Below are positions 1-38,160 of a stretch of 64,000 nucleotides of DNA, in pieces. Position 1 is the stretch's first letter; each line of letters starts with the position of its first letter. Origin of the DNA: Prorocentrum cordatum (taxonomy: Eukaryota); the NCBI GenBank assembly GCA_963575745.1, contig CAUYUJ010000026.1, forward strand, positions 1 to 64,000, in the 5' to 3' direction. The position numbers were made by a program, and so were the translations under genes. The notes under the pieces were generated by a model. The model searched no databases. It was not told where the DNA came from and saw nothing but the letters and a program-made list of their open reading frames with translations.

Positions 1-37
<37 letters not shown>

Positions 38-48
38 GATCACTACTA
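1..48. repeat. (CTA)n microsatellite, end of a tract cut by the window edge
   Basis: Direct reading: ctactacta... Confidence 0.9.
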
Positions 49-102
49 AAACTGATTCGTGTGCTACTAACAATGCGAATGTGAACCATACAAATACGTT
101 TC

Positions 103-371
103 GGAGGAGGAGGCGGAGGAGGAGCAGGAGAAGGAGGAGGAGGAGCAGAAGGAGGAGGAGGAAGAGGAGGAGGAGGAGGAGGAGAGAGGAGGAGGAGGAG
201 GGGAGAGGAGGGGAGGAGGAGGAGGAGGAGGGATGGAGGAGGAGAGGAGGAGAAGGTGGAGGAGGAGGAGGTGGAGGTGGAGGAGGAGGAAGGAGAGGGA
301 GGAGGAGAAGGGGAGGCTGGTGATGGAGGAGGAGGAGGAGAGGAGGAGGAGGAGGAGGAGGAGGAGGGAGG

Positions 372-402
<31 letters not shown>

Positions 403-456
403 GGAGGAGGAGGAGGAGGAGGAGGAGGAGGAGGAGGGAGGAGGAGGAGGAGGAGG
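103..456. repeat. (GGA)n/(GAT)n simple repeat
   Basis: Direct reading. Confidence 0.95.
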
Positions 457-774
457 TGGACCCGACGAATCACATGATGCTTCAACGATGCTCCAACACA
501 CCCTCCCGTCCGAGATCCCCTCCTTATAAGCCCTTCAGGTATTCCTTTCCACTGCGGGTAGCGCGCCCCCTTGACTTGCGAGCGGCTGTTGGGCCCGCGA
601 CTCCTGCCAGGCCCCGTCCTGCAAAGGATCCGCCCTCTCTATTCCTGTAGACGAAAAAGCCGCTCAGAGACGGGGTGATCGAGTTCAAGACGTGCTCAGG
701 GAGGGCCTCGCTTTTGGGATGGGCAAGTGTTGTACAATCTCGAGGCTCTGGTCATGAAATATTTGCAGGAGTCA

Positions 775-1122
775 TGCGCGAGAGTCCCACTTGAGGCGAG
801 GAGCCGCCCTTCCATCCGTGTCTTTGGCTGCTGCATGTGTTGGAACTCTGGGCCAAATAGTTTGAGGAGATCTCATGCGAGAACCGCATTCTGAGAACGC
901 ACGGGCCTCCGTCCTCGTAGCGTTTGAATATGTTGAGGCGCTTGTGCGCGGCGTTAAGGCGAGAGCCGCATCTTGAAGACGAACCGGCCTGCATCCTTGT
1001 ACCTGGTGAAACTTCATTTTTTTTTCTTTTATGATTGTGCACAGCTTTTAAACCGAATGTGCGCCGCGCGAACGCGAGAGTCGCACTTTCAAAGCCGCGG
1101 GACCTCCATCCTTGTAGCTATT
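775..1122 (+). repeat. Diverged dispersed repeat with internal units of ~60-110 bp, related to 62955-63170
   Basis: Recurring motif tgtgcgcggcg..aa.gcgagagccgcat.ttgaa...ccatccttg at both loci. Confidence 0.55.
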
Positions 1123-1123
1123 G

Positions 1124-1578
1124 GGAAGGAGAAGGAGGAAGAGGAGGAGGAGGCGGAGGAGGAGGGTGGAGGGAAGGAGGAGGAGGAGGCGAGAAGGGGA
1201 GGAGGAGGAGGAGGAGGTGGAGGAGGAGGAGGAGGAGTAGAGGAGGAGGAGGAGGAGAAGGAGAGGGGGAGGAGGAGGAGGAGGAGGAGGAGGAGGAGGA
1301 GGAGGAGGGGGAGGTGGGGAGGAGGAGGAGGAGGAGGTGGGGAGGGAGGAGGGGAGGAGGAGGAGGAGTTGAGAAGGTGGATAAGGAGGAGGTTGAGGGA
1401 GGAGGACGACGACTGCACGGCACTGCGACGGCCACGACGCCAGCCACCACCACACCACCGACGACGACGACGACGACGACGACGACGTGACGACGACGTT
1501 GACGACGACGACGACGACGTCGACGACGACGACGACGACGACGACGGACGACGATCGACGACGAGACGACGACGACGC

Positions 1579-1624
<46 letters not shown>

Positions 1625-1985
1625 CGGCGACGTGGGCGATGAAGGAGGAGGAGGAGGAGGAGGAGGAGGGGGAGGAGGAACATGAATCGAGTTCGACCAG
1701 GAGGCGGAGGAGGAGGAGGAGGAGTAGGAGGAGCAGGAGGATGAGGAGGTACGGCACGGTGACGGCCACGACGACCACGACGACGACGGCGGCGGTGACG
1801 ACGACGACGACGACGACAAAAGACGACAACGACGCCGATGACGACGACGACGACCACGACCACGGCGATGGCGACTGCGACGGCGACGGGTAGCGTCGGC
1901 TACGCCTGCGGCGAGCATGATGACGGGGGCGACGGCGACGGCGACTAACGACGGCGGCGGCGGCGACGGCGACGGCGGCGACGAG
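1124..1985. repeat. Compound (GGA)n/(GAC)n/(GGC)n simple repeat
   Basis: Direct reading. Confidence 0.95.
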
Positions 1986-2544
1986 TGCCCGTGGCGCCCC
2001 CTCCCCCCGAGGACGCCACAATGCGCCCCGCGGTCGGCGGCGGCGAGACCGAGGCCGGCCTCCGCCGCCAGCAGTGCCCCCCCCCGCAGCTTCCGCCCCC
2101 CGCCGCAGCGGCGCCCGCCCATGCGCCGCGCGCCGCGCACCGCCGCTCACCGCTCACGCCAGAGCCGCCTGCCTGGTCTGCCTCCGTGCCGCCTCGCCCG
2201 CGTCCGGTGGTCGGGGCTTCGCGGCCTGGAGGCCCTGCAGAGGTGACCTGCGGACCGGAGTCCCCAGGGGCGGGTTCTCTGTTGCGGCTCTCTGGTGGCC
2301 TTGCGTGCAAGCTGGGCCACTTCGACGGTATCGGCTGCGGGTTTCGGCATACCGTGCATCCGAGGTCATGGGCGCTCTCTGCGCCCGCGCCGACGCCTCT
2401 TCGCGGCGCCGCCCCTCCGGCGCGTCGCCGCTCGGCGGAGCGGGGCGTTCTGCGATGGAGTCACGGCGGGCCTTCGCTGTGCACCGTCGACTCTGCAGCG
2501 TCCCGATGCGCACTCTCGCCGCCTCCTGCGTTTCGGGCCACGCA

Positions 2545-3266
2545 AGGAGGAGGAGGAGGAGGAGGAGGAGGAGGAGGAGGAGGAGGAGGAGGAGGAGGAG
2601 GAGGAGGAGGGGAGGAGGAGGAGGAGGAGGCGGAGGAGGAGGAGGAAGGAGGAGAGGAGGAGGAGGAGGGAGGAGGAGGAGAGGAGGAGGAGGAGGAGGA
2701 GGAGGAGGAGGAGGAGGAGGAGGAGGGGAGGAGGAGGAGGAGGAGGAGGAGGAGGAGGTGGGGGAGGAGGAGGAGGAGGAGGAGGAGGTGGAGGAGGAGG
2801 AGGTGGGAGGAGGAGGAGGAGGAGGGGAGGAGGAGGAGGAGGAGGAGGAGGTGGAGGAGGAGGAGGAGAGGAGGAGGAGGAGGAGGAGGAGGAGGAGGAG
2901 GCAGGAGAGGAGGAGGAGGAGGAGGAGGAGGAGGAGGAGGAGGAGGAGGAGGAGGAGGAGGAGGAGGAGGAGGAGGAGGAGGAGGAGGAGGAGGAGGAGG
3001 AGGAGGAGGAGGAGGAGGAGGAGGAGGAGGAAGGAGGAGGGGGAGGAGGAGGAGGAGGAGGAGGAGGAGGAGGAGGAGGAGGAGGAGGAGGAGGAGGAGG
3101 AGGAGGAGGAGGAGGAGGAGGAGGGAGGAGGAGGAGGAAGAGGAGGAGGAGGGGAGGAGGAGGAGGAGGAGGAGGAGGAGGAGGAGGAGGAGGAGGAGGA
3201 GGAGGAGGAGGAGGAGGAGGAGGAGGAGGAGGAGGAGGAGGAGTGCGGAGAGAGAGAGAGAGAGAG
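2545..3266. repeat. (GGA)n tract ending in (GA)n
   Basis: Direct reading. Confidence 0.97.
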
Positions 3267-4092
3267 CTGCCGCGCTGGCCGGCTCAAGGGTAAAAGGCAT
3301 TCCGCAGGTTATGAGCCCCGCGCGTTTGCCCCTCCAATCTCCTCATCTCTCGGGCCTTCTCTTTCTTTTCTTCGTTCGTGCGCGCCGCAATGCCGACATG
3401 GGTTGACACCCCGATCCCTGACGGCGATGACGATGACTTAGTCGATCCGATCACGAGCACGATTTCCACTGGAGCGCCCGCGCCAGAGGGTTTCTCGAAC
3501 CCCGTAGTCACCCGGTCGCGTCCTCGTGGTGCCGACAGCTGTGACGCTGTGTCACGTCCGGCTGAAAGCACCGAGGAGGAGGAGGAGGAGGAGGAGGAGG
3601 AGGAGGAGGAGGAGGAGGAGGAGGAGAAGGAGGAGGAGGGGTAGGAGGAGTAGGAGAAGGAGGAGGAGGAGGCGCGGCGGCGGAGCGGTGTCGGGCCGAA
3701 GGTCGATAAGATTCGCCTTACATCAATCTTCCGAGCACAACTCGAGAGATTGCGACCTACCGTGCGTGCCCCTTGCGGGGACGATTCGAGAACGGCCACC
3801 CCCTCGGGTGGGAGCCCCGATTTGTCATCGCTCAACCACGATTGCAAAAGCGAGGCGCACTAAGTTTGGGCCCAGGACCGAGCGGCAAAGCGGACACCAG
3901 GATCAAAAACGTGTGGCAGCTCGCACGAGCTCCTTAAAGCTGTACTGCCTGGCAGGAGGAGGAGGAGGGGGAGGTCTCGGAGGAGGAGGAGGACCTGACG
4001 GGCGGGCGACGGCAGCGGCACGAGCCTCGAGGTCGCACTCCCCCTCAGTGCGCATCGCCGAGGCCCTCGAGACAATCGGAGAAGGCAAGGCC

Positions 4093-4272
4093 GCCGATCC
4101 GCTCGCCGCCATCGGAGACGACAGAACCGCCGATCCACTCTTGGCAATCGAAGTAGCCAAGCCCGCCGATCCACTCGCGGCAATCGAAGTAGCCAAAGTC
4201 GCCGATCCACTCGCAGCGATCGGAGGCGACAAGGTCGCCGATCCACTCTTGGCAATCGTCGAAGGCAAGGTC
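4093..4272 (+). repeat. 36-bp tandem repeat, 5 units, reading ADPLxAIxxxKx on the plus strand
   Basis: gccgatcc(a/g)ctc...atc... recurs every 36 nt; followed by a ~140-bp duplication (about 4285-4425 and 4429-4570). Confidence 0.85.
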
Positions 4273-4647
4273 CACGACACAGCCCTGGCCTGGCCCCGAG
4301 ACGCTCCCCTCCTTTAATCCCTTGGGAACCGCCTCGGCGGAGGGGGTCTGCGGTTGCCAGGCCCGATGACGACCCAGCAATCGACCTCCTCCTGGCAATC
4401 GGAGTAGGCAAGGCCACTGATCCACTCCTGGCCTGGCCCCCGAGACGCTCCCCTCCTTTAATCCCATGGGAAGCTCCAAGGCGGAGGGGGTCTGCGGTTG
4501 CCAGGCCCGTAGACGACCCCGCGATCGACCTCCCCTTGGCAATCGGAGTAGGCAAGGCCGCTGATCCACCCTCCGCACTCGATGTAGCCGTCACCAAGCG
4601 CCGTCTCCCGCCCATCCCACCTCGAACCTGAGGCGCCGAAGCCGAGT

Positions 4648-5490
4648 CTACTGCTCGAAGTTGTCGATCGCTAGCTGGAGGATCCGCTCCGTATTCGAGC
4701 GAGGCGCGACTCCTGGTTTCTGCTCTCCTCCCAACTGCGTGAGGCACGCTATGAAGACCGACGTCAGCGACAGGTCCGCAAACGAGAAGGTGATCTTCGC
4801 TTGGCCCTCCTTGTATGCGCGGGCCACCCTGGAGCCGCGAACCAGAAGCCCGAACTCCGTGAGATTCGTGATGCCGTCCAGCTTCTGCTGCTGCTCCTGC
4901 CACTTCTGCTGGCTGACCGCCCCGACCGCCACGCCTGCCTTCACGCTTGCCTTGCACCCGATGAGGAAGACTTGGACGCAAGCAGGGCCCATGGCAACCT
5001 CGGGGAGTGGCTTCGCCTGGTCCTTGGCGTGTTCCTCCCTCATGGCCGCTGCCTGCTTCGCGTAGGCCCTGCCTGCTGCCAGTCCTTGCTGCACGATCTC
5101 GGCGTTCTCGTCGAACAGAAAGGTTTGAAATTCCGCTGCGTTCAAGGCCCGAATCTGGTACGAGTTCGCCAGCACGCCGCGAATCAGGATGGGGAATATC
5201 TGGGCCACCACCTGAAGGTCCATCGGCGGCAGCTTGTTGAGAACGTCGGCCTCCAGGCCATAGGCCTTGCTGAGCTGAGCCGCCACCGCTACGCCCACCG
5301 ACGCCTGTCCGCGCTGCTGGGCGCCTCGAGGCTCGGCGCTGCGCCTGGCGCCGCGTCCCCCGCCGCGCCTGCGGGAAGCGGCTGCCGAGCCAGATCGGCC
5401 TGCCCGCCCTCTCGGCTGAGAGCCGCCGCGCTGGGTTGAACGAGAACGAGTCCCTGCCTCCCGCAAGGCCTCGTCGGAAAGGCGGTGCAT
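4648..5490 (-). CDS. Uncharacterised ~280-aa ORF immediately downstream of, and overlapping the read-through of, the LINE pol
   Basis: Uninterrupted ORF from ATG 5490 (MHRLSDEAL); R/G-rich N-terminus then globular-looking sequence ending GGEQKPGVAPRSNTERILQLAIDNFEQ. Confidence 0.65.
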   Translation of the reverse strand: MHRLSDEALREAGTRSRSTQRGGSQPRGRAGRSGSAAASRRRGGGRGARRSAEPRGAQQRGQASVGVAVAAQLSKAYGLEADVLNKLPPMDLQVVAQIFPILIRGVLANSYQIRALNAAEFQTFLFDENAEIVQQGLAAGRAYAKQAAAMREEHAKDQAKPLPEVAMGPACVQVFLIGCKASVKAGVAVGAVSQQKWQEQQQKLDGITNLTEFGLLVRGSRVARAYKEGQAKITFSFADLSLTSVFIACLTQLGGEQKPGVAPRSNTERILQLAIDNFEQ

Positions 5491-5499
5491 CAGAGCGCG

Positions 5500-8400
5500 A
5501 CCGAACCGTCGAGTAGAGAGGCTCTCGTGGGGCGTGGGCTTCGCGCAGGTGCCGAGAAAGCTCGTAGAGCGTGCCAAACGGCTGTTCGACGGAGCAACAA
5601 AAATCCGAAGATGTCCCACCATACACCGAGCGCACCTTGAGAGACACGAGCGGGCACTCCAGGGACTCAGGCGGCACGATGGGATGCTTGAAGGGGGAGG
5701 CCTGGGCGAAGCACCTGCCTGTAAGCGTAGCCTGGACGAGATGTTCCTGGGCAATCCTCCGAGTCCGAAACGTCTGAGTGCAGAAAATACATTGGTTCGT
5801 AACCGTGGCCGTGTGCAACGCCGATCGGCACGAATGGCCTCCCCCGAGAGAAAACCTCTGGTGCGCCAGGAGGGCCCGTCTGGTCTTGAAAACTCGATCG
5901 CGCCCAGCTCCGTCGGGACCACGAAGATCGCATGTCCATGCAGCCGCAGCCGGCGGTGGGGCGACTTCGGGCGCCTCGGGAACGGCCTCAGCAGGTCCAT
6001 GCAGTCCAGGAGGAGGGGGAATCGCTACCGTCCGTGCCGCAGCTCGAAGAAGGCCTGGATCCAGGGCAAGATACCTCCCACGAAGGTCGTCATTCAGAAA
6101 AAGCGCCCGAACATTCAAGCGCCTCCAAGGTTCCAGGGACGGGACCGAAACCATGAGCAGCTCCTCCAGATCCTTAGCCTCGGAGCGGTCCAGGAGCCTC
6201 AAAACATCCAGGGCAGACCTGCGAGCGTACGGGTTCACCTTCTTCTCGAGGGTGCCGTTCTCCGAAACTGTGGGGGTCTCTTCTAGCGGGAGCTGCCCAA
6301 ACACCGCAGCGATCTCTTGAGGGTGCCGAGAAGGACGCACGAGCCAGCGACGATGCATGCGGAGTCGGCGGACACAGAGTTCGACCCCCGACGGCGCCAC
6401 CCCCACTCTGCGCAGGACGACCGCATCGGAGAGGGCCTTATACCTGATAACCTCGTGACCCTCGTCGTCGATAATAGGCATGCCGTCGCCGTCCACTGCC
6501 GTCGTCCTAGCACGCGCGTCGCCCCCGAGCAACTTTCGGCCGAACCCGACGAGCACCCGATCAAGCCGAAACTCCGGTGCCTCTGTCAGGATGAGGGTGG
6601 TGAGGCCAGACAGAAGCGCACCCTGCACGACGGCCCCAAATACAGTGCGAGTAAAACGCCACACACGGTTCCGAGACCAGAACCTCCCCATCGAGTAGTA
6701 CCCCCTCCTGCACGCCAAGATCCGTCTCCTCAACTCTCCTTGAACTCCTCCATTCACGGCAGTCTGGATTCCGAGCGCGATGTTATCAAACTGCACCTGC
6801 CCCTCCACCTTCACCTGTCCCCCGAAGATCGCAGCAGCATGTGCGTGAGCTCCTCGACCGACGGACGACGGGGAAATGCGACTTTTCCCACGGTTGTGTG
6901 CGTACCCACTCTCCCTCAGAGCAGCCGTCAGGCCCCTGTGGGCCGTGTTCAAAGTGAACTGCGCATTTTCAGCCGTCGTCACCACGTGAGTCTTACTGGT
7001 ATCGTCAGCATATATGCGACACGAGAGATCCACGGGGCGCTGGATAAATGGCGCCCATGCTGTACACAGAGACTCGCTGGGCCACATCACCCGCGCCCAG
7101 TCGCGGGGAGGAGCACGAGGAACGAGAGGTTGATCCAGCCACTCTTGGTACGAGAGAGGACGAGGAGGGACATCGGCAGGCCAAACCTGCTCACGCATAA
7201 AGTCAAGCCACTTCTGCACGGGTCGTCTAAAAGTGCGTGAACAAATACTGCCGCTGGACTGTCGCCCATTAAAGCTCCACAGCGATTGTGCATGGTAAGC
7301 TCCCCGTCGGCCCCCGTGATGGTAAAGGTATTGTATTCATGCCTATAATGGAAGTAAGCCTGATCAGGCCCCGCGATAGACTCGGCCACCGTGCGCCTAA
7401 GTTCAGGAAGCGTAGAGCACCCAAAGGCGTTATGACATATCCTCCTTCGAAGTCACTGAAGGGATCCCCAGACTGCGCAGCCTGCCCAAGAGAGCCTCCT
7501 GACAGATCATGGCCCCCTCCCTGTTGCGCCCGTGATGGTACCCGTGTTCACGGTCTGGGGCCTCATCGGGGGGACCTTTCAGTAGTTGCGCCTTAAACCA
7601 GACAGCCCCCATTCGGCAGAGCCCATGAATGTACCTGAGGGCCCCGAATCCTTGCTTGCCGTTCTGCTTGCTCAGTCCAGTTGCCCGAGAGTGATGCCAG
7701 ACCAGCGGGGTCCTGCCTACCCTCCTGGTGTGGTGGAACACCTTCTGGAGCCCCCTGAGCGTGTGAGTGTTGTCGAACGACTCGGGTGCAGTGCCTAACC
7801 CACGACGATCCCCTGCTAAGCGATGACGAGGAACGAAGGCAGGAACTCGAGAAGGTCCGTCGCCGTCCTCATCGTCGTTGTCTCTCTTCTTCGGCCGTCG
7901 ATAAGTGCCGTCGAATCTTCGCTGATGATGAAGGGCCAATATGAGGACCTCTGAGGGTACACTGTGCAGAGGAGCAGCCTTACGACGGGGGGCCTTCGCC
8001 AGCAGCTCAAGAACCTGCTCGAGGTCGGACCGTCCTAGCTCTACGTGCTCGAAGTTATCGATACCGTACATGGGGGGCTTCGGGGCGACCTCGAGCTGGG
8101 CCTTCTGGTACTCCTGAAACTCGATCGGCACGGCCTCGAAACCTCCCTGGGGCCCGGGTTTGGCGAAGTGCTCCCGAATCTCTGCGATCTTCGGAACGAA
8201 CTCGTCGACTGTGTTGCACCGCCTACGTTTGGGGCCTCCGCATTTAGCAGCACGTACATGGGCCAGCCTCCAGACTTCAGCATGCTGTCGTTTTTCCCAG
8301 GCCGAACCGATCTCCGACACCAGCTGCTCAGTCACGGTTGCCTGGCGGGCCCTCCGCAACTGGCGAAGATGACGAGAGAGCCGAGCCAACTTCATGGACG

Positions 8401-9580
8401 TCGCGAAGTCGTCGTCGCCGTTGGCCCTGGCCGAGCGTCGCGCCTCGAGGAGGCGACTCCGCTCTCGAGCATGCTCAGCCGCCTGAGGATCAGCAGCGGC
8501 AGCGCGTGAGAAGTGCCTGTCCGCGACCTCGAACACAGTAGTCATCCATCTCTCCCAACCAAGGTCGGGGGTGGGGGCGTGGAGCAGTAACTCATGGAAG
8601 TCCACGCCCTCGAACTGCGCCTCCAGGTCCGCGACGAAGGCGCCCGCTCCTGTGCCTCGACGAAGAGCTTCCCCCAGTCTGTCGAAGTCCCACTGCGTGC
8701 CGTGCTTAGATGCCGCCATGTCAAACGCGTAGTTCAGGCGTAAAAGAATGGGCACATGATCTTGAAGCCCGTGTTTCTTGACCAGCTTCAGTCGCAAGTT
8801 GGACGAGCGCATCGCCAGGCAGCGGTCAACCATGCTCTCCTGCCAGGAAAAAATAGCCACGAAATCAATCTGAGACGATCCCACGGCTCCGTAGTAGCTG
8901 GGCCCCAGGGGAAAGTCCGTCGAGGTCACCGCCACAGCGTGACGCTCCATGACTTCTAGGACGCGATCAGCAGCATACCTCTGCTCGCCCGTCCTGTGCG
9001 GGCCCAGTGCGGGCGATACGACGGCTTCCTGCACACCGCCCGCCCTCCGACGCCAGCCGAACGAGTCATTCATGTCGAAGCCCCACAGAAGGGCAGACCG
9101 CTTGCACGACCAGGTCAAAGTCTTCTCAAGCCACGAGATCATCGCGTCGACAGTCAATCTGTACAGTCGCTGCGGACCGTCATCGCTCTCGCGGCCCACA
9201 CGCTTCCCCGACGGCTTCGGAGGGAAGTAGGTCACTGGGATGAGAATGTCGAAGCGGCCAGACCGCAGTCGAAATAACGCAACACGTCCTCGGAGAGAGA
9301 CTGGCACAGCAGGGACGTCAACCAGGTGGCGACGTCGATAGACACGCTTTCGGAGGAGAAGAGTAATGCCACACGATCGATTGACAAACTTGCTTGGTGT
9401 GTATCCGCACCTGAGCGCGAAGTGGTAGCGCAGCGTGGTGAACACAGTGGGTTGGTCAGGTGCCGCCCGCTCGCACGTGCTTGTGAGTGCGATGATGTCC
9501 ACAGTGCGCATCTCCTCACTAATATCTTGCAATCTGCCCTCGTCTGCCGCCATACAGTTCCAATGCACGAATGTCAGCAT
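5500..9580 (-). pseudogene. LINE pol (AP endonuclease, reverse transcriptase, C2H2 zinc fingers) broken by frameshifts near 7430 and ~7200
   Basis: APE motifs TFVHWNC, GFDMND, SQIDFV, QDHVPI; RT motifs EHGYHHGR, DMS/NAF (split by a 1-nt shift), GALMGDS, IYADD; fingers CIFC...EHL and C...FKTRRALLAHQRFSLGGGH. Confidence 0.9.
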
Positions 9581-9736
9581 AGCAAGAACACGGCAAGCAG
9601 AACACATCAACTGAGAGTACAGTGAGTGAAGAGAGCTGGCCGAGTGGGGTGGCCGCCAGCTCCGCACGGGTACGGTTGGCGGGGGGCCGCATGTACACCA
9701 GCCCCGTGTGCAGGAAAGCCTGGGCGCGGGGGGCTA

Positions 9737-24050: not shown

Positions 24051-29712
<5,662 letters not shown>

Positions 29713-29791
29713 CTTGTTTGGATTATTCATATTATTCGTTTCGTTTCCCAATCAGAGCCTGCCTCCGTAGGGGTCCTGGCGGAGTCATTTG

Positions 29792-29803
29792 TTTTGGCTC
29801 AAG
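29792..29803 (+). other. Relic of the dinoflagellate spliced leader (3' 12 nt)
   Basis: ttttggctcaag equals the 3' end of DCCGTAGCCATTTTGGCTCAAG; lies 3 nt inside the left TSD and 88 nt before an ATG. Confidence 0.8.
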
Positions 29804-29891
29804 CTTTTTTTATCTTCTAGCTTGAAGTTGGACGTGGGCGTGGTGTAGCGAAGGCTCGGCGGCTAGATCGACCTAGGCTTCCTCGGCGACC

Positions 29892-31105
29892 ATGGCGTTT
29901 CGCGCAGCGGGCGCGCCCCAGCAAGCTGACCTGCCGGCCCAGCCGCTCGGCGCTCTGCAGGGCTTGCGCGCAGCGAGGGCGGATCGGCGCGTGGAGTGTG
30001 CCGTGAACGGCAATGCGGCGCAGCTCCGTTCGTTGACCAAGACTTCGGGCCCCGTCAAAGGCACAGAGTACGTGGACGGCAGGGGCATCCACGAGACCGA
30101 CATTGCCGCCAACGCTTGGCTCTTTGGAGCCACGCGCGCGGTGCTTGCGGTTGCGAACGGGGTCGGCGTCGGAGTGGCGGCAGGCCAGATCCCGGGCGCC
30201 CTGCTCCTGTTCGTCGCCTACGCGGTGCAATTCTCGGTCCGGTACGAGCTCAACGAGTGGGCGGCGAACGGAGACGAGAGGTGGGCTGGGGCTGCAGTGG
30301 ACGTCGCCACTGGCCGCGCCGCGGTGCAGGCTGCTACGGCTGCTCTTCCTGGGTTCGGGGGCGTGGCTCCAGGCGGGGGTCCTTTCGCGGCGGACCAGCA
30401 GGGCGTCCTTGGTCTCCCAGCGGGCTCCGGATTGATCGACGTGTCAATTCCAGCTGCTTTCCTGCAGGTGATCAACACTTGGACAGGTTCCGCTTTCCTG
30501 GACACGCTGGCTTCCGTCTGTCTCTTTCTCGTGGCGACAGAGCTCTGTGCCAGTGGGCATCACTACCTGTCGACATGGACAAATATCTTCCGGCTTACGA
30601 TGACATGTTCCAAGCGGTCGCCCGCGCCGTGGGAATGTCGCTCGCAGACGTTCGCTCTTTCCTGCTTCACCGGGCGCTGCACACGATGGAGACTCTCGCT
30701 CCATCATGGCTTGGGCGACCGGAGCACCTGCGAAAGAGGCCTAGGTCGCTTGGGGATTCCCAGAGGTTGCCTTGCGCTTTCCGTTCATGCTCTCGGCAAT
30801 GCATTGTGCGGGCGCATATTACTCCCTCATCATCGAGGCTCTGGAGCTCGCCGGCGCGCTGGGAGCCCGCTGGGAGTTGGGCACCGCGCGCCAGGTGACC
30901 ACCTGGGCCCATGGCCTGACCTACGCACAGGCGAGCCAGCCAGGGGTCGACGGCGCTTGCATGGCGCGAAGGCACCGTAGCCTTTCTCGCCAGTTTCCTC
31001 GCAGCCCACGCAGCCCAGTCAGGTGCTGACTGCACCTCGCTTCGGGCGAAGTCGGTGGATCGGCTGAAGAAATCCAAGGGCGCTGCATGGGGGCAGGGCT
31101 CGCGG
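29892..31105 (+). pseudogene. Intronless ~400-codon unknown ORF with about three frameshifts; candidate RNA-virus nucleoprotein-like endogenous element
   Basis: Joined frames read MAFRAAG...SGHHYLS / KYLPAYDDMFQAV...FLLHRALHT / LRFPFMLSAMHCAGAYY... / VAFLASFLAAH...TSLRAKSVDRLKKSKGAAWGQG; product identity unverified. Confidence 0.55.
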
Positions 31106-32854
31106 CAGAGCCCTCGACAACACAAGAACGACAGGTGCAGGGGCGCCGCTGGGCTCACGGCAGAACTGTTCAAAGCAGGAGGCGCCACCTTACAGTGCCA
31201 CCTACTTCGACTGCACAACGAAGCAATCAAGCCTGATCGCCCCCCGCCAGACCAATGGAAGAGCACCGCCATCACTGCTATGCACAAGTCTGGTGACCCC
31301 GAACTACCAGGCAATTTCAAACCAATTGCCTTCATCCCTCTGCTATATAAGCTGATGCCTCGCCTCCTTTGCAACCGGCTCGGCGCCTTGTTCGACTCGC
31401 AACAATGCCCGGACCAAGCAGGTTGCTGCAAGAACTATTGCACAGAGGACCATCTGTTCACCACAGCAATGCTTCATGAGAGCCCTTACGAATGGCAGCT
31501 GCCGCTCTGGGCTGCCCGAATAGATTTCAAGAAAGCGTTCGACTGTGTTGACCGCGACTGTATGTGGGGCGCTCTACGACAGCAGCATTTACCTACCGCC
31601 TACATCACCCTCCTGCGACACTTATATAGCACCCAAACTGGTACGGTTCGGACGGATACCAACAGCAGAGCCTTCAATATCGAACGGGGCGTTAAGCAGG
31701 GAGACCCGCTGAGCTCTCTCCTTTTCAACGCCGTCCTAGAGCACGTGCTGCGCGCGTTCAGAGAAGTGAAACCTGTTTGGGCACGGAAGAAATTCGGGAT
31801 CCAACTTGGCTTCTCAGCACAGGCGCGGATTACGAATCTGCGTTTCGCCGACGACGTGTTGTTGTACGCCGCCAACCTCAGACAGCTCACCTGCTTACTT
31901 CGAGACGTACAAGCCCACGCAGCTAAATGCGGCCTGTTGCTACATCCGGAAAATAGAAAGACCCTGACAAACATTAGCCGGAGAGAGGGGCGAACAATCG
32001 CCCATGTCGACATCAACGGCGACAGCATCAGCACCCTACATTCCAGCCGCGGAACGAAGTTTTTGGGGGGAGAATTCCCTTTTCACGACTTTCATGGCGC
32101 AGAGCTGCACGACAGGATTGCCGCAGGGTGGGCCCGTTTCAATCAGCTTCGTTACGAGTTGACCAACAAACGCTTCCCGCTTCATAGTAGACTGAGGCTG
32201 TTCAATGGCACTGTCATGCCATCCGTGTTGCACGGCTGCTCCCCCTGGACTCTGACGAAGGAGATGCTTCTTATTCCCAGGCGCGTTCAACGGAAAATGC
32301 TCAGGCTTGTCGCGGGGGTGCCGCGGAGACGCAGCGAGCAACGCCAGCGCGCGCTCGACACCTCCGACGACGACCACCACCACAACATGACCGACGCCGA
32401 CACAGCAAACAACCCGAACTACGCAACCAACAACAGCGACGTGAGGAATGATGACGGAAAGGAACCATGGGCCGACTACATCCGACGAGCCACGCGCGAA
32501 GCCACGGTCCATGCTTCCCGCGCCCAAGTGGAAGAATGGGTTGCTCTATATTTCAAACGGAAATGGAAATGGGCACCCCGTGCGGCGACACATGACTGCG
32601 ACAGGTGGACTTTCTTAGCTGCTTCGTGGGAACCACGCGCGCGCGACCCTCGCCCAGCGCGCCGGCGGCATGGAGGTCAACGAAAGCGACGGGCAGACGA
32701 CATCATGCATTTCTTACGCGCCAAAGGCGCGCGTGAAGACCGCGACGACCAGGAACGCAACAACCAGCGGTTATCAATTGCAACAGACCAACAACTATGG
32801 AGGGATCTAGAAGATGATTTCATACATTACGCCTACGTCCATTACAACCTATAG
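31106..32854 (+). pseudogene. Reverse transcriptase of an RTE-like LINE, 5'-truncated (no endonuclease), frame still open
   Basis: GLTAELFK, KSGD..LPGNFKPI, DQAG, IDFKKAFDCV, RGVKQGDPLSSLLFN, LRFADDV, KWKWA. Confidence 0.93.
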
Positions 32855-33180
32855 GATCTAGAATGCTTCCCCGACTCCAACTTTACGTGTTCTTCCCACT
32901 CTGGTCTTTTCTCCGCCTCCTGTTCACACTTCTCCTCTCTCCGACTCCGGCGCCGGCTCCCGCTCCTGCCCCCGACGCGTCCTCTGAGGGCTCCGGCCCG
33001 CCCGCGCTGCTCCTAAGGGGCCCGCCGGCCGGCCGGCGGACACAGCGCGCCTCGCCTCGCCTCGCCTAGCGGAGTCATCTGGTTAGGTGAGGTGTCCCGC
33101 CGATTTCCGCGGCCCGCCCGGGTGCCCGGTTGCCCGGGTGCCCAGGTGCCCGGGCGCCCCTGTGCCCGGGTGCTTTATTG

Positions 33181-33900
33181 GCCTATAGCCCTATAGCCCT
33201 ATAGCCCTACAGCCCTATAGCCCTATAGCGCTATAGCTACATAGCCCTATAGCTTTACAGCCCTGCAGCCCCATAGCCCAATAGCCCTATAGCCCTATAG
33301 CCATATAGCCCTACAGACCAATAGCCCTATAGCCCCATTGCCCTGTAAACCTATAACCCAATAGCCCAATAGCCCGATAGCCCCCCTATATCCCTATAGC
33401 CCCATAACCCTAGTAGCCTTTTAACCTTATAGCCATATAGCCCTATTGCCCTGTAAGCCTGTAGCCCTGTAGCTCTATATGCCTATAGCCCTAGGGCCCT
33501 ATAGCCCCATAGCCCTGTATCCATGTAGCCATATAGCCCTATGGTCCTATAGCACTATAACCTATAAGCCTATAGCCCTGTAGCTCTATATGCCTATAGT
33601 CCCATGGCCCTATAACCCCATATCCTTATATCCCTATAGCCAGATTGCCCTATTGGTCCTATAGCCCTATAGCTCCACAGCCCTATACATTCATAGCCCT
33701 ATGGCCCTGTAGCCCTATAGCCGCATAGCCCCAGAGCCCCATAGCCCCATAGCCCTATAGCTCTACAGTCCTATGGCCCTATCGCCGCCAAGCCCTACAG
33801 CACTAGAACCCTATAGACCTATAGCCCTATGGCCCTATAGCCCCATATATCCATAGCCCTATAGCCCCATATTCCCAGGGCCCTATAGCCGAATAGCCCC
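33181..33900. repeat. Degenerate 8-bp (GCCCTATA)n tandem repeat
   Basis: Direct reading. Confidence 0.92.
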
Positions 33901-33934
33901 ATTCCATATCGTCGTGCACGTTTTTTTTTTTTTC

Positions 33935-35640
33935 TCCCCAACCCTCCTTGGTTGGGTATTCGTTTTGAATAGAGCAGTGTGGTCTCCACTCCTTCCTTCC
34001 TCCTCCTCCTCCCTCCCTGCCTCTTCCTGTCTTGCCTGCGGGGGGCTGCGATCTGTGAAACTGTCGTCATTTTCGAGGCCTGCTGGGGGGCCCAGCACAG
34101 TGAGGGCGACCTGCGCGGATTCAAATGAACCTCGCCATCCCTGGGGGGCTGCGATCTGTGAAACTGTCGCCATTTTTCGAGGCGTGCTGGGGGTCCCAGC
34201 ACAGTGATGGTCGGATCGGCGCAGTTCAAATGAGACATGTTTCCAAGACGAGTTGCTGCGATCTGGAAACTGTCCGCCAAAATTTTTTTTTTTTTCGAGG
34301 CCTGCTGGGGGGCCCAGCACAGTGAGGGCGACGCGCAGATTCAAATGAGACCTCGCCATCCCTGGGGGGCTGCGATCTGTGAACTGTCGCCATTTTCGAG
34401 GCGTGCTGGGGGGCCCAGCAGAGTGAGGGCGACGCGCATATTCAAATGAGACCTCGCCATCCCTGGGGGGCTGCGATCTGTGAAGCTGTCGCCATTTTCG
34501 AGGCCTGCGGGGGGGCCCAGCACAGTGAGGGCGACGCGCGGATTCAAATGAGACCTCGCCATCCCTGGGGGGCTGCGATCTGAGAAACTGCCGCATTTTC
34601 GAGGCCTGCTGGGGGGCCCAGCACAGTGAGGGCCACGGGCAGATTCAAATGAGACCTCGCCATCCCTGGGGGGGCTGCGATCTGTGAAATTGTCGCCACT
34701 TTCGAGGGCTGCTGGGGGGCCCAACACCGTGACTGCCACGGGCATTTCAAAATTGAACCGTCGCCTTCCCTGGGGGGCTGCGATCTGTGAAACTATCGCC
34801 ACTTTCGAGGCCTGCTGGGGGGCCCAGCACAGTGAGGGCCACGCGCGGATTCAAATTAGACCTCGCCATCCCTGGGGGGCTGCGATCTGCGAAACTGTCG
34901 CCATTTTCGAGGCGTGCTGGGGGGCCCAGCACAGTGAGGGCCACGCGCAGATTCAAATTAGACCTCGCCATCCCTGGGGGGCTGCGATCTGCGAAACTGT
35001 CGCCATTTTCGAGGCCTGCTGGGGGGCGCAGCACAGTGAGGGCCACGCGCGGATTCAAATTAGACCTCGCCATCCCTGGGGGGCTGCGATCTGCGAAACT
35101 GCCGCCATTTTCGAGGCCTGCTGGGGGGCCCAGCACAGTGAGGGCCACGGGCAGATTCAAATGAGACCTCGCCATCCCTGGGGGGGCTGCGATCTGCGAA
35201 ACTGTCGCCATTTTCAGGGCCTGCTGGGGGGCCCAGCACAGTGACGCCACGGGCAGATTCAAATTTGACCTCGCCATCCCTGGGGGGGTGCGATCTGTGA
35301 AACTGTCGCCATTTTCGAGGCCTGCTGGGGGGCCCAGCACAGTGAGGGCCACGGGCAGATTCAAATGAGACCTCGCCATCCTTGCGGGGCTGCGATCTGT
35401 GAACCTGTCGCCACTTTCGAGGCCTGCTGTGATCCCCGTTTTCGAAGTGGCTAGGAGTGCTCAGGAATTGTAAATCATCAGCTTTGTCAAGCCCTTTTCC
35501 TGTAGCCAGTGTCCTGCGAGTCTCCCGAATTCCGTCTGCAGACATATGTAACCCTCGCTCCGTCATCGCCCCCTTATAAAGTATCCTAAACTATTTGCGC
35601 CCCGCTTTTGCGCAGGGGTTGGGCACGTCGCCAGGGTAAT
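33935..35640 (+). mobile_element. Helentron-like non-autonomous element, family A copy 1, with ~101-bp satellite
   Basis: 5' hairpin cccaaccctccttggttggg after a T run; tandem ~101-bp units; conserved ~200-bp 3' block ending gggttgggcacgtcgccagggtaat. Confidence 0.75.
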
Positions 35641-35671
35641 TGCTTTTCTTTTGCGGTCCATTTTTTAAAAA

Positions 35672-38160
<2,489 letters not shown>

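What the first reader, a model, noticed from the sequence alone, without database searches (positions are those of the whole stretch)
29892..31105. Captured ORF may be the nucleoprotein of an unknown RNA virus whose mRNA bore the host spliced leader
Seen: ~400 codons after repairing three frameshifts, with GHHY, HRALH and a C-terminal TSLRAKSVDRLKK..G segment; no cellular family recognised. Inference from memory, unverified: this motif order resembles nucleoprotein-like proteins of qin-/yue-like negative-strand RNA viruses. If so, it is an endogenous viral element implying that viral mRNAs acquire the leader by cap-snatching, trans-splicing or mimicry, and that LINEs archive them, possibly as an antiviral memory.
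Basis: inference. Interest (0 to 1): 0.8.

Follow-up and report, generated by a model that had tools for sequence, protein, structure and literature searches.

The report
Broken gene copy fused to LINE
A jumping-gene enzyme copied most of a spliced-leader-capped messenger RNA of an unnamed protein family and pasted it, fused to its own tail, into a dinoflagellate-type genome; whether that RNA came from a virus is not shown.

Summary
It carries GHHY, HRALH and TSLRAKSVDRLKK. It is a real gene relic: 11 proteins in a 1.84-billion-protein library match it (best E 1e-18), and its pieces are co-linear with full-length 524-527 aa relatives.

The relic covers residues 1-430 of about 527. A 12-base DinoSL relic lies 100 bases upstream of its ATG. 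It runs in frame into a LINE reverse transcriptase that lacks its endonuclease. One 10-13 base target-site duplication flanks the whole unit (29779-29788 and 33069-33078).

This fits one LINE event: template switching from LINE RNA onto a trans-spliced mRNA, which gave a dead chimeric retrocopy.

SL-tagged, retroelement-linked RNA-virus relics in Symbiodinium are already published. My odds of a viral origin are about 20-25 %.

The parts
29779..29788 (+). Left copy of the target-site duplication GCGGAGTCAT (13 of 14 bases alike if extended by xTG)
   Evidence: the longest word shared between the 5' flank and the DNA downstream; a shared 10-mer arose in 115 of 20000 shuffles of the two flanks.
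29792..29803 (+). DinoSL relic TTTTGGCTCAAG (leader positions 11-22, 3' end intact), 100 to 89 bases upstream of the ATG
   Evidence: the only match in 64 kb, expected 0.08. The DinoSL sequence is as printed in PMC5585692 and PMC9651163.
29804..29891 (+). 5' UTR of the captured mRNA. It contains GCTAGATCGAC (29862-29872), which also lies about 20 bases upstream of the ATG in the distant relative L001.
   Evidence: unique in the window, expected 0.03; L001 positions 78-88.
29892..30569 (+). Piece A, frame 3, 226 codons from the conserved start Met to GHHY (30555-30566). This is the N-terminal arm and most of the confident helical domain of the family.
30566..30575 (+). Frameshift 1 (frame 3 to frame 2), approximate place
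   Evidence: HSP ends; alignment.
30575..30694 (+). Piece B, frame 2, with HRALH (30668-30682), which matches the family's HKALHS block
30676..30936 (+). Piece C, frame 1 (frameshift 2 at about 30694-30700), with an in-frame TAG at 30742-30744. It matches the family's AW..LG.EA.AVRFP block.
30920..31108 (+). Start of piece D, frame 2 (frameshift 3 at about 30925-30960). It holds the last family-homologous stretch, TSLRAKSVDRLKK..GAAWGQGSRQ, which matches residues 406-430 of the 527-aa relative.
   Evidence: E 0.001 for the pair.
31108..31136 (+). Junction interval between the captured mRNA copy and the LINE. The frame is continuous across it.
   Evidence: Family homology ends at about 31108. 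LINE-1 ORF2p homology begins at about 31136.
31136..32854 (+). 5'-truncated LINE ORF2: reverse-transcriptase domain to the natural stop, with FADD at 31844-31855. There is no stop or frameshift, and the endonuclease is absent.
   Evidence: RVT_1, E 6e-23; human L1 ORF2p residues 470-721, E 3e-15; R2 proteins.
32855..33068 (+). LINE 3' UTR, ending in (CGCCT)3 TAG with no poly(A)
   Evidence: Diverged contigs of other copies lie on 32948-33071.
33069..33078 (+). Right copy of the target-site duplication GCGGAGTCAT

Best explanation
The stretch 29789-33068 is one dead, LINE-made chimeric retrocopy.

Proposed steps (inferred from the anatomy): a LINE reverse transcriptase primed at a nicked target and copied the 3' half of its own RNA. 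At a point equivalent to the start of the RT domain it switched template onto another RNA, landing at about codon 430 of that RNA's reading frame. It then copied that RNA to within about ten bases of its 5' end, which carried the trans-spliced dinoflagellate leader. The product was joined to the target and left a 10-13 base duplication.

The captured RNA was a monocistronic mRNA of about 1.9 kb for a 524-527 aa protein. The protein is alanine-rich, mostly helical and probably soluble, and belongs to a small unnamed family. The relic keeps the leader's 3' end, as trans-splicing gives, so the template was most likely a nuclear transcript: a host gene, or an already resident and expressed copy.

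The captured part has since lost its frame (three frameshifts, one stop), or was already broken in the template. It has no function now.

Shown: the parts, their order, the homologies and the duplication. Inferred: the template switch and the nuclear origin of the template.
For: - **Real gene relic:** 11 library proteins match at E <= 0.001, best 1.2e-18. The pieces are co-linear with full-length relatives.
- **Conserved start:** the start Met and the MA..APGAP opening are shared with the relatives.
- **Leader relic:** it is unique in 64 kb and lies at -100. That is within the -50 to -100 zone where such relics are best kept (PMC5585692, passages).
- **LINE part:** RVT_1 at E 6e-23. The match to human L1 ORF2p starts at its residue 470, so the endonuclease and about 470 residues are missing.
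- **One duplication flanks the whole unit:** 10 of 10 bases, or 13 of 14. A shared 10-mer arose in 115 of 20000 shuffles, and no word of 7 or more is shared between the internal junction and the LINE's 3' flank.
- **Missing tail not downstream:** the C-terminal 97 codons are not detectable at 33069-36000 (best E 0.07).
- **Relatives stand alone:** L001 is an 1850-base contig holding only the 527-aa ORF with its own stop and UTRs. P0002 sits on a single 1977-base contig.
- **Other LINE copies exist:** diverged contigs (11-28 differences per 94-232 bases) lie on the RT part in two runs. The listed pieces on the ORF part are identical ones.
Against: - No contig or read bridges either junction, so an assembly join cannot be excluded.
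- Over the whole unbiased search space (300 x 2950 bases) one shared 10-mer is roughly what chance gives (my arithmetic). Its weight comes from its position at both ends.
- TCCGTAG, the first bases of the leader, lies 26 bases upstream of the relic (29765-29771). If it belongs to the leader, the duplication reading is wrong.
- The RT part has no frameshift in about 1.75 kb, while the captured part has three in about 1.2 kb. Under equal decay this has a chance of about 0.07 (my arithmetic), so the two parts may differ in age or in the state of the template.
- No parent gene, intron-bearing or not, was seen, because no genome of the organism is held. The nuclear origin of the template is inferred from the leader alone.
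- A leader has also been reported on a dinoflagellate +ssRNA virus assembly (PMC10235124, passage citing Levin 2017).
Confidence: 0.6

Rival explanations
1. Same chimeric retrocopy, but the captured RNA was the nucleoprotein mRNA, or the small genome segment's mRNA, of an unknown negative-strand RNA virus of dinoflagellates (mononega-, qin- or yue-like). The locus would then be an endogenous viral element.
For: - **Orphan family:** only 11 clusters in 1.84 billion representatives, and most are fragments of 89-245 aa.
- **Short single-gene contigs:** the full-length members sit alone on contigs of 1.85-1.98 kb.
- **Layout of the model:** a disordered arm, a helical domain with small hairpins, a second helical region and a long tail with one confident helix.
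- **Weak fold rows for the P0002 model:** 8 of the top 50 BFVD rows are named nucleoprotein or nucleocapsid, including Sanxia Qinvirus-like virus 1, and unnamed proteins of Beihai sesarmid crab viruses 3 and 4 also appear. Four of the top 50 PDB rows are paramyxo- or pneumovirus N.
- **Conserved UTR word:** an exact 11-mer in the 5' UTR is kept between relatives that are only about 32 % identical as proteins.
- **Precedent:** mononegaviral polymerase-derived genes are reported in Symbiodinium genomes (PMC9651163, passages).
Against: - The enrichment vanished with the second model in BFVD (1 of 50 rows), and no N appears in the two wide PDB searches. The two models share one shallow alignment, so they are not independent.
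- No Pfam nucleoprotein family is hit at E <= 1 for 5 relatives, or at E <= 0.1 for L001.
- Lys+Arg is only 6.2-6.3 % and pI is 6.6-7.1. From recall, this is low for RNA-coating proteins.
- No polymerase partner is known. IMG/VR holds no relative.
- An intact leader 3' end fits trans-splicing better than cap-snatching, which would take the leader's 5' end (inference).
- L001 shows no complementary termini.
Confidence: 0.15
2. Same retrocopy, but the captured RNA encoded another viral structural protein, for example the coat protein of a two-segment dsRNA (partiti-like) virus. Such segments are monocistronic and about 1.5-2.4 kb long (recalled, no call).
For: - The contig sizes and single-ORF layout fit.
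- The protein is helical, alanine-rich and low in charge.
- A UTR word is conserved.
- A partiti-like (durna-like) RdRp was reported from a dinoflagellate culture (PMC9927876, table passage).
Against: - No coat protein of such viruses appears by name in the top 50 rows of any fold search.
- No Pfam hit was found.
- No RdRp partner is known.
- The resemblance in size and layout is recalled, not tested.
Confidence: 0.07
3. Two separate events: an older SL-tagged retrocopy of the gene was later hit by a 5'-truncated LINE insertion at codon 430.
For: The captured part is more decayed than the RT part: three frameshifts and a stop against none.
Against: - No duplication of 7 or more bases flanks the LINE part alone.
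- The rest of the ORF is not found after the LINE, although that tail is poorly conserved.
- A 10-13 base duplication flanks the whole unit.
Confidence: 0.08
4. The ORF is the LINE's own first reading frame (ORF1 or gag-like).
For: It lies directly upstream of the RT and in the same orientation. One relative, P0001, is fused to an unrelated C-terminal part.
Against: - The endonuclease and about 470 residues of ORF2 are missing between ORF and RT.
- The ORF itself is cut at residue 430 of 527.
- Full-length relatives end with their own stop and UTR, without an RT.
- P0001's tail has no similarity to this LINE (best E 0.36) and no Pfam family.
- The diverged LINE-family contigs listed lie on the RT part only.
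Confidence: 0.03

Closest known systems
LINE template-switch chimeras (U6-L1 type chimeric retropseudogenes of mammals; recalled, no call)
   Same: A copy of a foreign RNA, complete to its 5' end, is fused head-to-tail to a 5'-truncated LINE 3' part. One target-site duplication surrounds both, with none at the internal joint.
   Different: The foreign RNA is a spliced-leader-capped mRNA entered at an internal codon. The LINE tail ends in (CGCCT)3 rather than poly(A). The host is a dinoflagellate-type genome.
DinoSL-tagged retrogenes and retropseudogenes of dinoflagellates (PMC5585692, PMC6050394)
   Same: A partial leader relic (12 bases; 9 is the published minimum) lies within 100 bases upstream of the start codon of an intronless copy.
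   Different: The copy lacks its own 3' end and is welded to the LINE that presumably made it. The passages of PMC5585692 that I searched do not hold the word 'chimeric' (0 occurrences).
Endogenous dinoflagellate RNA-virus elements (dinoRNAV MCP/RdRp EVEs, PMC10235124; vHGTs including mononegaviral RdRp, PMC9651163)
   Same: These are fragmented, frameshifted ORFs in Symbiodinium-type genomes, some with a DinoSL within 500 bases or 2 kb, and near LINE or other reverse transcriptases. Retroelement-mediated capture of SL-tagged transcripts is the proposed mechanism.
   Different: Those elements were found by similarity to known viral RdRp and capsid genes. This ORF has no detectable similarity to any viral protein. 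I had no dinoRNAV reference sequence, so that comparison was not made.
Nucleoprotein N-terminal domain of pneumoviruses (RSV N 4uc6/4uce, HMPV N 8pds)
   Same: In both models it is the longest co-linear structural alignment: 116-150 of about 220 residues over the family's confident domain.

Membership tests
Negative-strand RNA virus nucleoprotein (mononega-, qin- or yue-like) | Sequence or profile similarity to a described nucleoprotein family | tested here: not met
   Pfam: no family for window pieces A and C, and only two sub-threshold unrelated hits for B. None for 5 relatives at E <= 1 or for L001 at E <= 0.1. PDB sequence and profile searches gave 0 hits at E <= 10.
Negative-strand RNA virus nucleoprotein (mononega-, qin- or yue-like) | Two-lobed helical N fold with a significant structural match | tested here: inconclusive
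Negative-strand RNA virus nucleoprotein (mononega-, qin- or yue-like) | Encoded by an RNA replicon together with an RdRp (same genome, or a co-occurring segment with shared termini) | not testable with these tools
L001 holds only this ORF and shows no terminal complementarity. No IMG/VR relative was found.
LINE template-switch chimeric retrocopy | The 5' part is a copy of a processed RNA reaching its 5' end mark | tested here: met
   The DinoSL relic at 29792-29803 is unique in the window. It is followed by an 88-base UTR and the conserved start codon.
LINE template-switch chimeric retrocopy | The 3' part is a 5'-truncated LINE running to the LINE's own 3' end | tested here: met
   RVT_1 at E 6e-23. 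Homology to L1 ORF2p starts at its residue 470. The frame is open to the stop at 32854 and there is no endonuclease.
LINE template-switch chimeric retrocopy | One target-site duplication around the whole chimera, and none at the internal joint | tested here: met
   GCGGAGTCAT lies at 29779 and 33069. A shared 10-mer arose in 115 of 20000 shuffles, and no shared word of 7 or more lies at the joint. The weight depends on position. No empty site was available.
LINE ORF1 / gag-like protein | Sits upstream of a complete ORF2 in the same element and is amplified with it | tested here: not met
   The endonuclease and about 470 residues of ORF2 are absent. The ORF is cut at 430 of 527. Relatives stand alone with their own stop and UTRs. 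The listed diverged LINE contigs lie on the RT part only.
dinoRNAV (HcRNAV-like +ssRNA virus) endogenous element | Similarity to the dinoRNAV major capsid protein or RdRp | not tested
   No reference sequence was available from any tool. The only indirect result is that no Pfam capsid or RdRp family was hit.
DinoSL-tagged retrogene or retropseudogene | DinoSL relic of 9 or more bases within 500 bases upstream of the ORF | tested here: met
   A 12-base exact relic lies at -100 to -89. The criterion is as stated in PMC5585692.

The most novel reading that the evidence does not exclude
The family is the nucleoprotein, or another structural protein, of a so far unseen RNA-virus lineage of dinoflagellates. 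The candidate lineage is the one that left the mononegaviral polymerase relics reported in Symbiodinium. Its roughly 1.9 kb mRNAs or segments share a conserved 5' UTR element (GCTAGATCGAC). This locus would then be a fossil caught in the act of capture: a LINE reverse transcriptase jumped from its own RNA onto a leader-bearing viral transcript. It would give the first structural-gene marker for finding that virus in transcriptomes.
Probability: 0.2. Interest if true: 0.65.

Novelty: new member of a known kind. Interest (0 to 1): 0.35.

Why it matters
As it stands, this is a clean single-locus example of how dinoflagellate LINEs make retrocopies. The enzyme's own truncated gene is still welded to the leader-tagged mRNA copy, with a duplication around both. 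In the papers I read, LINEs were only presumed to supply this activity (PMC5585692, discussion passage).

The captured gene belongs to an uncharacterised family with a strikingly conserved 5' UTR word. If that family proves viral, the locus and the full-length relatives (L001, P0002) would be handles for finding a new dinoflagellate virus and its polymerase. If it proves cellular, the locus is an ordinary retropseudogene of a 'dark' dinoflagellate gene.

Tried and rejected
**Searches and look-ups that gave nothing**
As a result, sources and names of 10 of the 11 relatives are unknown.
- The search for homologous proteins with piece A, P0002 and alignment A2 returned nothing, or only P0002 itself. 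The alanine-rich words swamp the word index.
- PHROGs found 0 of 3 pieces. The ESM Atlas gave no usable hit for P0002 or for the L001 protein. Rfam found 0 families in the window and L001.
- IMG/VR scans with P0002, A3 and A7 found no relative. Alignment A2 was too diverse to scan with. The first metagenome scan, with A3, found none.
- Earlier notes of this scan held nothing, in 4 look-ups.

**Fold searches that were uninformative**
- The second model (P0006) came out worse than the first: pLDDT 55.7 against 59.4.

**Ideas tested and dropped**
- 'P0001 is a second LINE fusion': its tail has no similarity to this LINE and no Pfam family.
- Membrane protein: there is no consistent hydrophobic segment across 3 members.
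- CCGTAGGG, shared by the window (29766) and the L001 UTR (41), is too short to mean anything. By my arithmetic, chance is about 0.15.

**Sequencing runs**
- No RNA holder is listed, so expression and small RNAs could not be addressed.
- Parts of the stretch are without contig cover, and no contig bridges either junction. This says nothing either way.

**Other checks**
- Minus-strand and alternative-frame ORFs over the locus (29817-30443, 30667-31434, 32036-32545 on the minus strand; 29930-30898 on the plus strand) have no Pfam family. I take them as by-products of high G+C.
- One paper search failed on a term that was too short and was not repeated.

Full report
**What is there**

The window is G+C-rich (about 0.55-0.67 outside microsatellites). 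No tool names the organism, and no genome is held for it. I call it dinoflagellate-type because of the leader relic described below.

The finding lies on a small island inside a very long (AGT/GTA)n array, which spans 24111-29674 and 35680-38160.

From the ATG at 29892 a reading frame can be followed to about 31108, in four pieces:
- frame 3, 29892-30569
- frame 2, to about 30694
- frame 1, 30676-30936
- frame 2 again, from 30920

Identical short contigs from two public runs span the sites of the first two frameshifts and the stop (records 8 and 1). These lesions are therefore not peculiar to this assembly, although the runs may be its source.

**It is a real gene relic**

Piece A (226 aa) found 11 proteins at E <= 0.001 among 1.84 billion representatives. 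Three are at <= 1e-10, and the best is 1.2e-18 at 36 % identity. In tblastn, 10 of the 11 hit this place and nothing else in the window.

The pieces are co-linear with the long members P0002 (524 aa), P0011 (468 aa) and P0006 (339 aa).

A metagenome scan with an alignment of these three found one locus among 131 pattern matches. This is L001, an 1850-base contig. Its only long sense ORF (109-1692) encodes 527 aa, and P0011 is that protein read from an internal Met.

Against this protein, the last homologous stretch of the window ends at residue 430 of 527, at about 31108 (E 0.001 for the pair). The locus therefore holds the first 82 % of the gene, not a whole one. The 'C-terminal segment' of the finding is internal.

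**What it is joined to**

The same frame runs on without a stop into a reverse transcriptase: RVT_1 at E 6e-23, with FADD at 31844-31855. The nearest solved relatives are human LINE-1 ORF2p and R2 proteins. The match to L1 ORF2p begins at its residue 470 and at about 31136 in the window. The LINE is therefore 5'-truncated and lacks its endonuclease.

The RT frame is open to 32854. It is followed by a 214-base tail that ends in (CGCCT)3 TAG.

Upstream, TTTTGGCTCAAG (29792-29803) matches positions 11-22 of the dinoflagellate spliced leader, as printed in PMC5585692 and PMC9651163. It is the only such match in 64 kb, with 0.08 expected, and lies 100 bases before the ATG.

GCGGAGTCAT lies directly before this relic (29779-29788) and directly after the LINE tail (33069-33078). 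With the next bases, 13 of 14 agree. A shared 10-mer arose in 115 of 20000 shuffles of the two flanks.

No word of 7 or more is shared between the internal joint and the LINE's 3' flank. The missing 97 codons are not detectable downstream.

Diverged contigs of other copies of this LINE family lie on the RT part in two runs. The listed pieces on the ORF part are identical ones.

**How it most likely arose**

The anatomy is that of a template-switch chimera. Target-primed reverse transcription began on LINE RNA. The enzyme then jumped onto an internal point of a leader-capped mRNA and ran to that RNA's 5' end. One duplication flanks the product.

This is how U6-L1 chimeras of mammals are explained. 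I cite that from recall, not from a call.

I give this reading, together with a nuclear (trans-spliced) template, a confidence of 0.6. The caveats are these:
- No read bridges either junction.
- The weight of the duplication rests on its position.
- TCCGTAG lies 26 bases upstream and may be a further piece of leader.
- All three frameshifts fall in the captured part, and none in the longer RT part. The chance is about 0.07 under equal decay (my arithmetic). This hints that the template was already a broken transcript, or that the two parts differ in age.

A two-event history (0.08) and a LINE ORF1 (0.03) fit less well, for the reasons given in their sections.

**What the protein is**

Sequence methods give nothing:
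- Pfam: none for the pieces, for five relatives or for L001.
- PHROGs: none.
- PDB by sequence and by profile: none at E <= 10.
- ESM Atlas: no usable hit.
- IMG/VR: no relative in three scans.

AlphaFold models of P0002 and P0006 were built from alignments of 12 and 13 rows. Their mean pLDDT is 59 and 56. One domain is confident, at about residues 60-300: mostly helices with small hairpins. A poorly modelled helical region follows, then a long tail that contains one confident helix.

The proteins have 17-22 % Ala, only 6.2-6.3 % Lys+Arg and a pI of 6.6-7.1. They have no consistent membrane segment.

**The nucleoprotein test**

No fold match is significant.

With the P0002 model:
- 8 of the top 50 BFVD rows are named nucleoprotein or nucleocapsid: rhabdo-, paramyxo- and mononega-like viruses and Sanxia Qinvirus-like virus 1. 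Unnamed proteins of Beihai sesarmid crab viruses 3 and 4 also appear. The best E is 0.11. Beihai sesarmid crab virus 4 is listed under Qinviridae in PMC9927876.
- 4 of the top 50 PDB rows are paramyxo- or pneumovirus N, with best E 0.77.

With the P0006 model:
- In BFVD only 1 of 50 rows is a nucleoprotein.

The two searches of all PDB representatives list no nucleoprotein at all.

**Points that keep a viral origin alive**

- The family is tiny and mostly seen as fragments.
- Its two full-length members sit alone on contigs of 1.85 and 1.98 kb.
- The 5' UTRs of the window copy and of L001 share an exact 11-mer, GCTAGATCGAC, about 20 bases before the ATG. The proteins are only about 32 % identical. 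The 11-mer is unique in the window, with 0.03 expected.
- Mononegaviral polymerase-derived genes have been reported in Symbiodinium genomes (PMC9651163, section 3.4.3 passages).

Each of these is also compatible with a lineage-specific cellular gene.

The base rate favours a cellular source. More than 20 % of Symbiodinium genes carry leader relics (PMC5585692, passages). A relic with the leader's 3' end intact is what trans-splicing of a nuclear transcript leaves.

I put a viral origin at about 0.2-0.25 in all: nucleoprotein 0.15, another structural protein 0.07.

**Comparison with what is known, and novelty**

Three things are already in print:
- leader-tagged retrocopies in dinoflagellates;
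- fragmented RNA-virus relics with a DinoSL nearby and reverse transcriptases in the neighbourhood;
- the model that leader-tagged viral transcripts are retro-integrated.

The sources are PMC5585692, PMC10235124 and PMC9651163. I read passages found by term search, not the whole papers, and I did not open their supplements.

What this locus adds is a direct weld between the LINE and the captured leader-tagged mRNA, with a shared duplication, and an uncharacterised protein family with a conserved UTR element. I rate it a new member of a known kind, with interest 0.35. If the family proves to be the structural gene of an unseen dinoflagellate RNA virus, interest would rise to about 0.65.

Noticed in passing
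window 29862-29872; L001 78-88: An exact 11-base word, GCTAGATCGAC, lies about 20 bases upstream of the start codon in both the window copy and a relative whose protein is only about 32 % identical. It may be a conserved cis element of this gene family's RNA.
   Followed up: partly
window 29892-31108 versus 31136-32854: The captured ORF carries three frameshifts and a stop in about 1.2 kb, while the adjoining RT frame is unbroken over about 1.7 kb. The template may already have been a broken transcript, or the two parts differ in age.
   Followed up: partly
window 24111-29674 and 35680-38160: Very long (AGT/GTA)n arrays (about 1848 and 816 copies) surround the island that holds the element. 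A 100-N assembly gap lies inside the first array at 25493-25592.
   Followed up: no
window 33182-33899: An 8-base satellite (CCTATAGC, about 89 copies) lies just after the LINE tail. Contigs of this repeat are extremely numerous in three of the four public runs laid.
   Followed up: no
window 34292-35429: A tandem array of a 102-base unit (11.2 copies, 91 % matches) of unknown nature.
   Followed up: no
window 3860-7336 (-) and 7430-9733 (-): Stop-free frames of 1158 and 767 codons with no Pfam family. They may be by-products of high G+C or unannotated genes.
   Followed up: partly
window 1-4000: Strong strand asymmetry in composition (GC skew about 0.36 and AT skew about 0.35) compared with the rest of the window.
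   Followed up: no
L001 1801-1809: A 9-base match to the start of the dinoflagellate leader (CCGTAGCCA) lies in the 3' untranslated part of the relative's contig. It could be the relic of a downstream tandem copy if the contig is genomic DNA.
   Followed up: no
P0001 (558 aa), residues about 235-558: One family member continues into an unrelated, Lys/Arg-rich C-terminal part with a Cys/His cluster. It has no Pfam family and no similarity to this window's LINE. It may be a gene-model fusion or another capture.
   Followed up: partly
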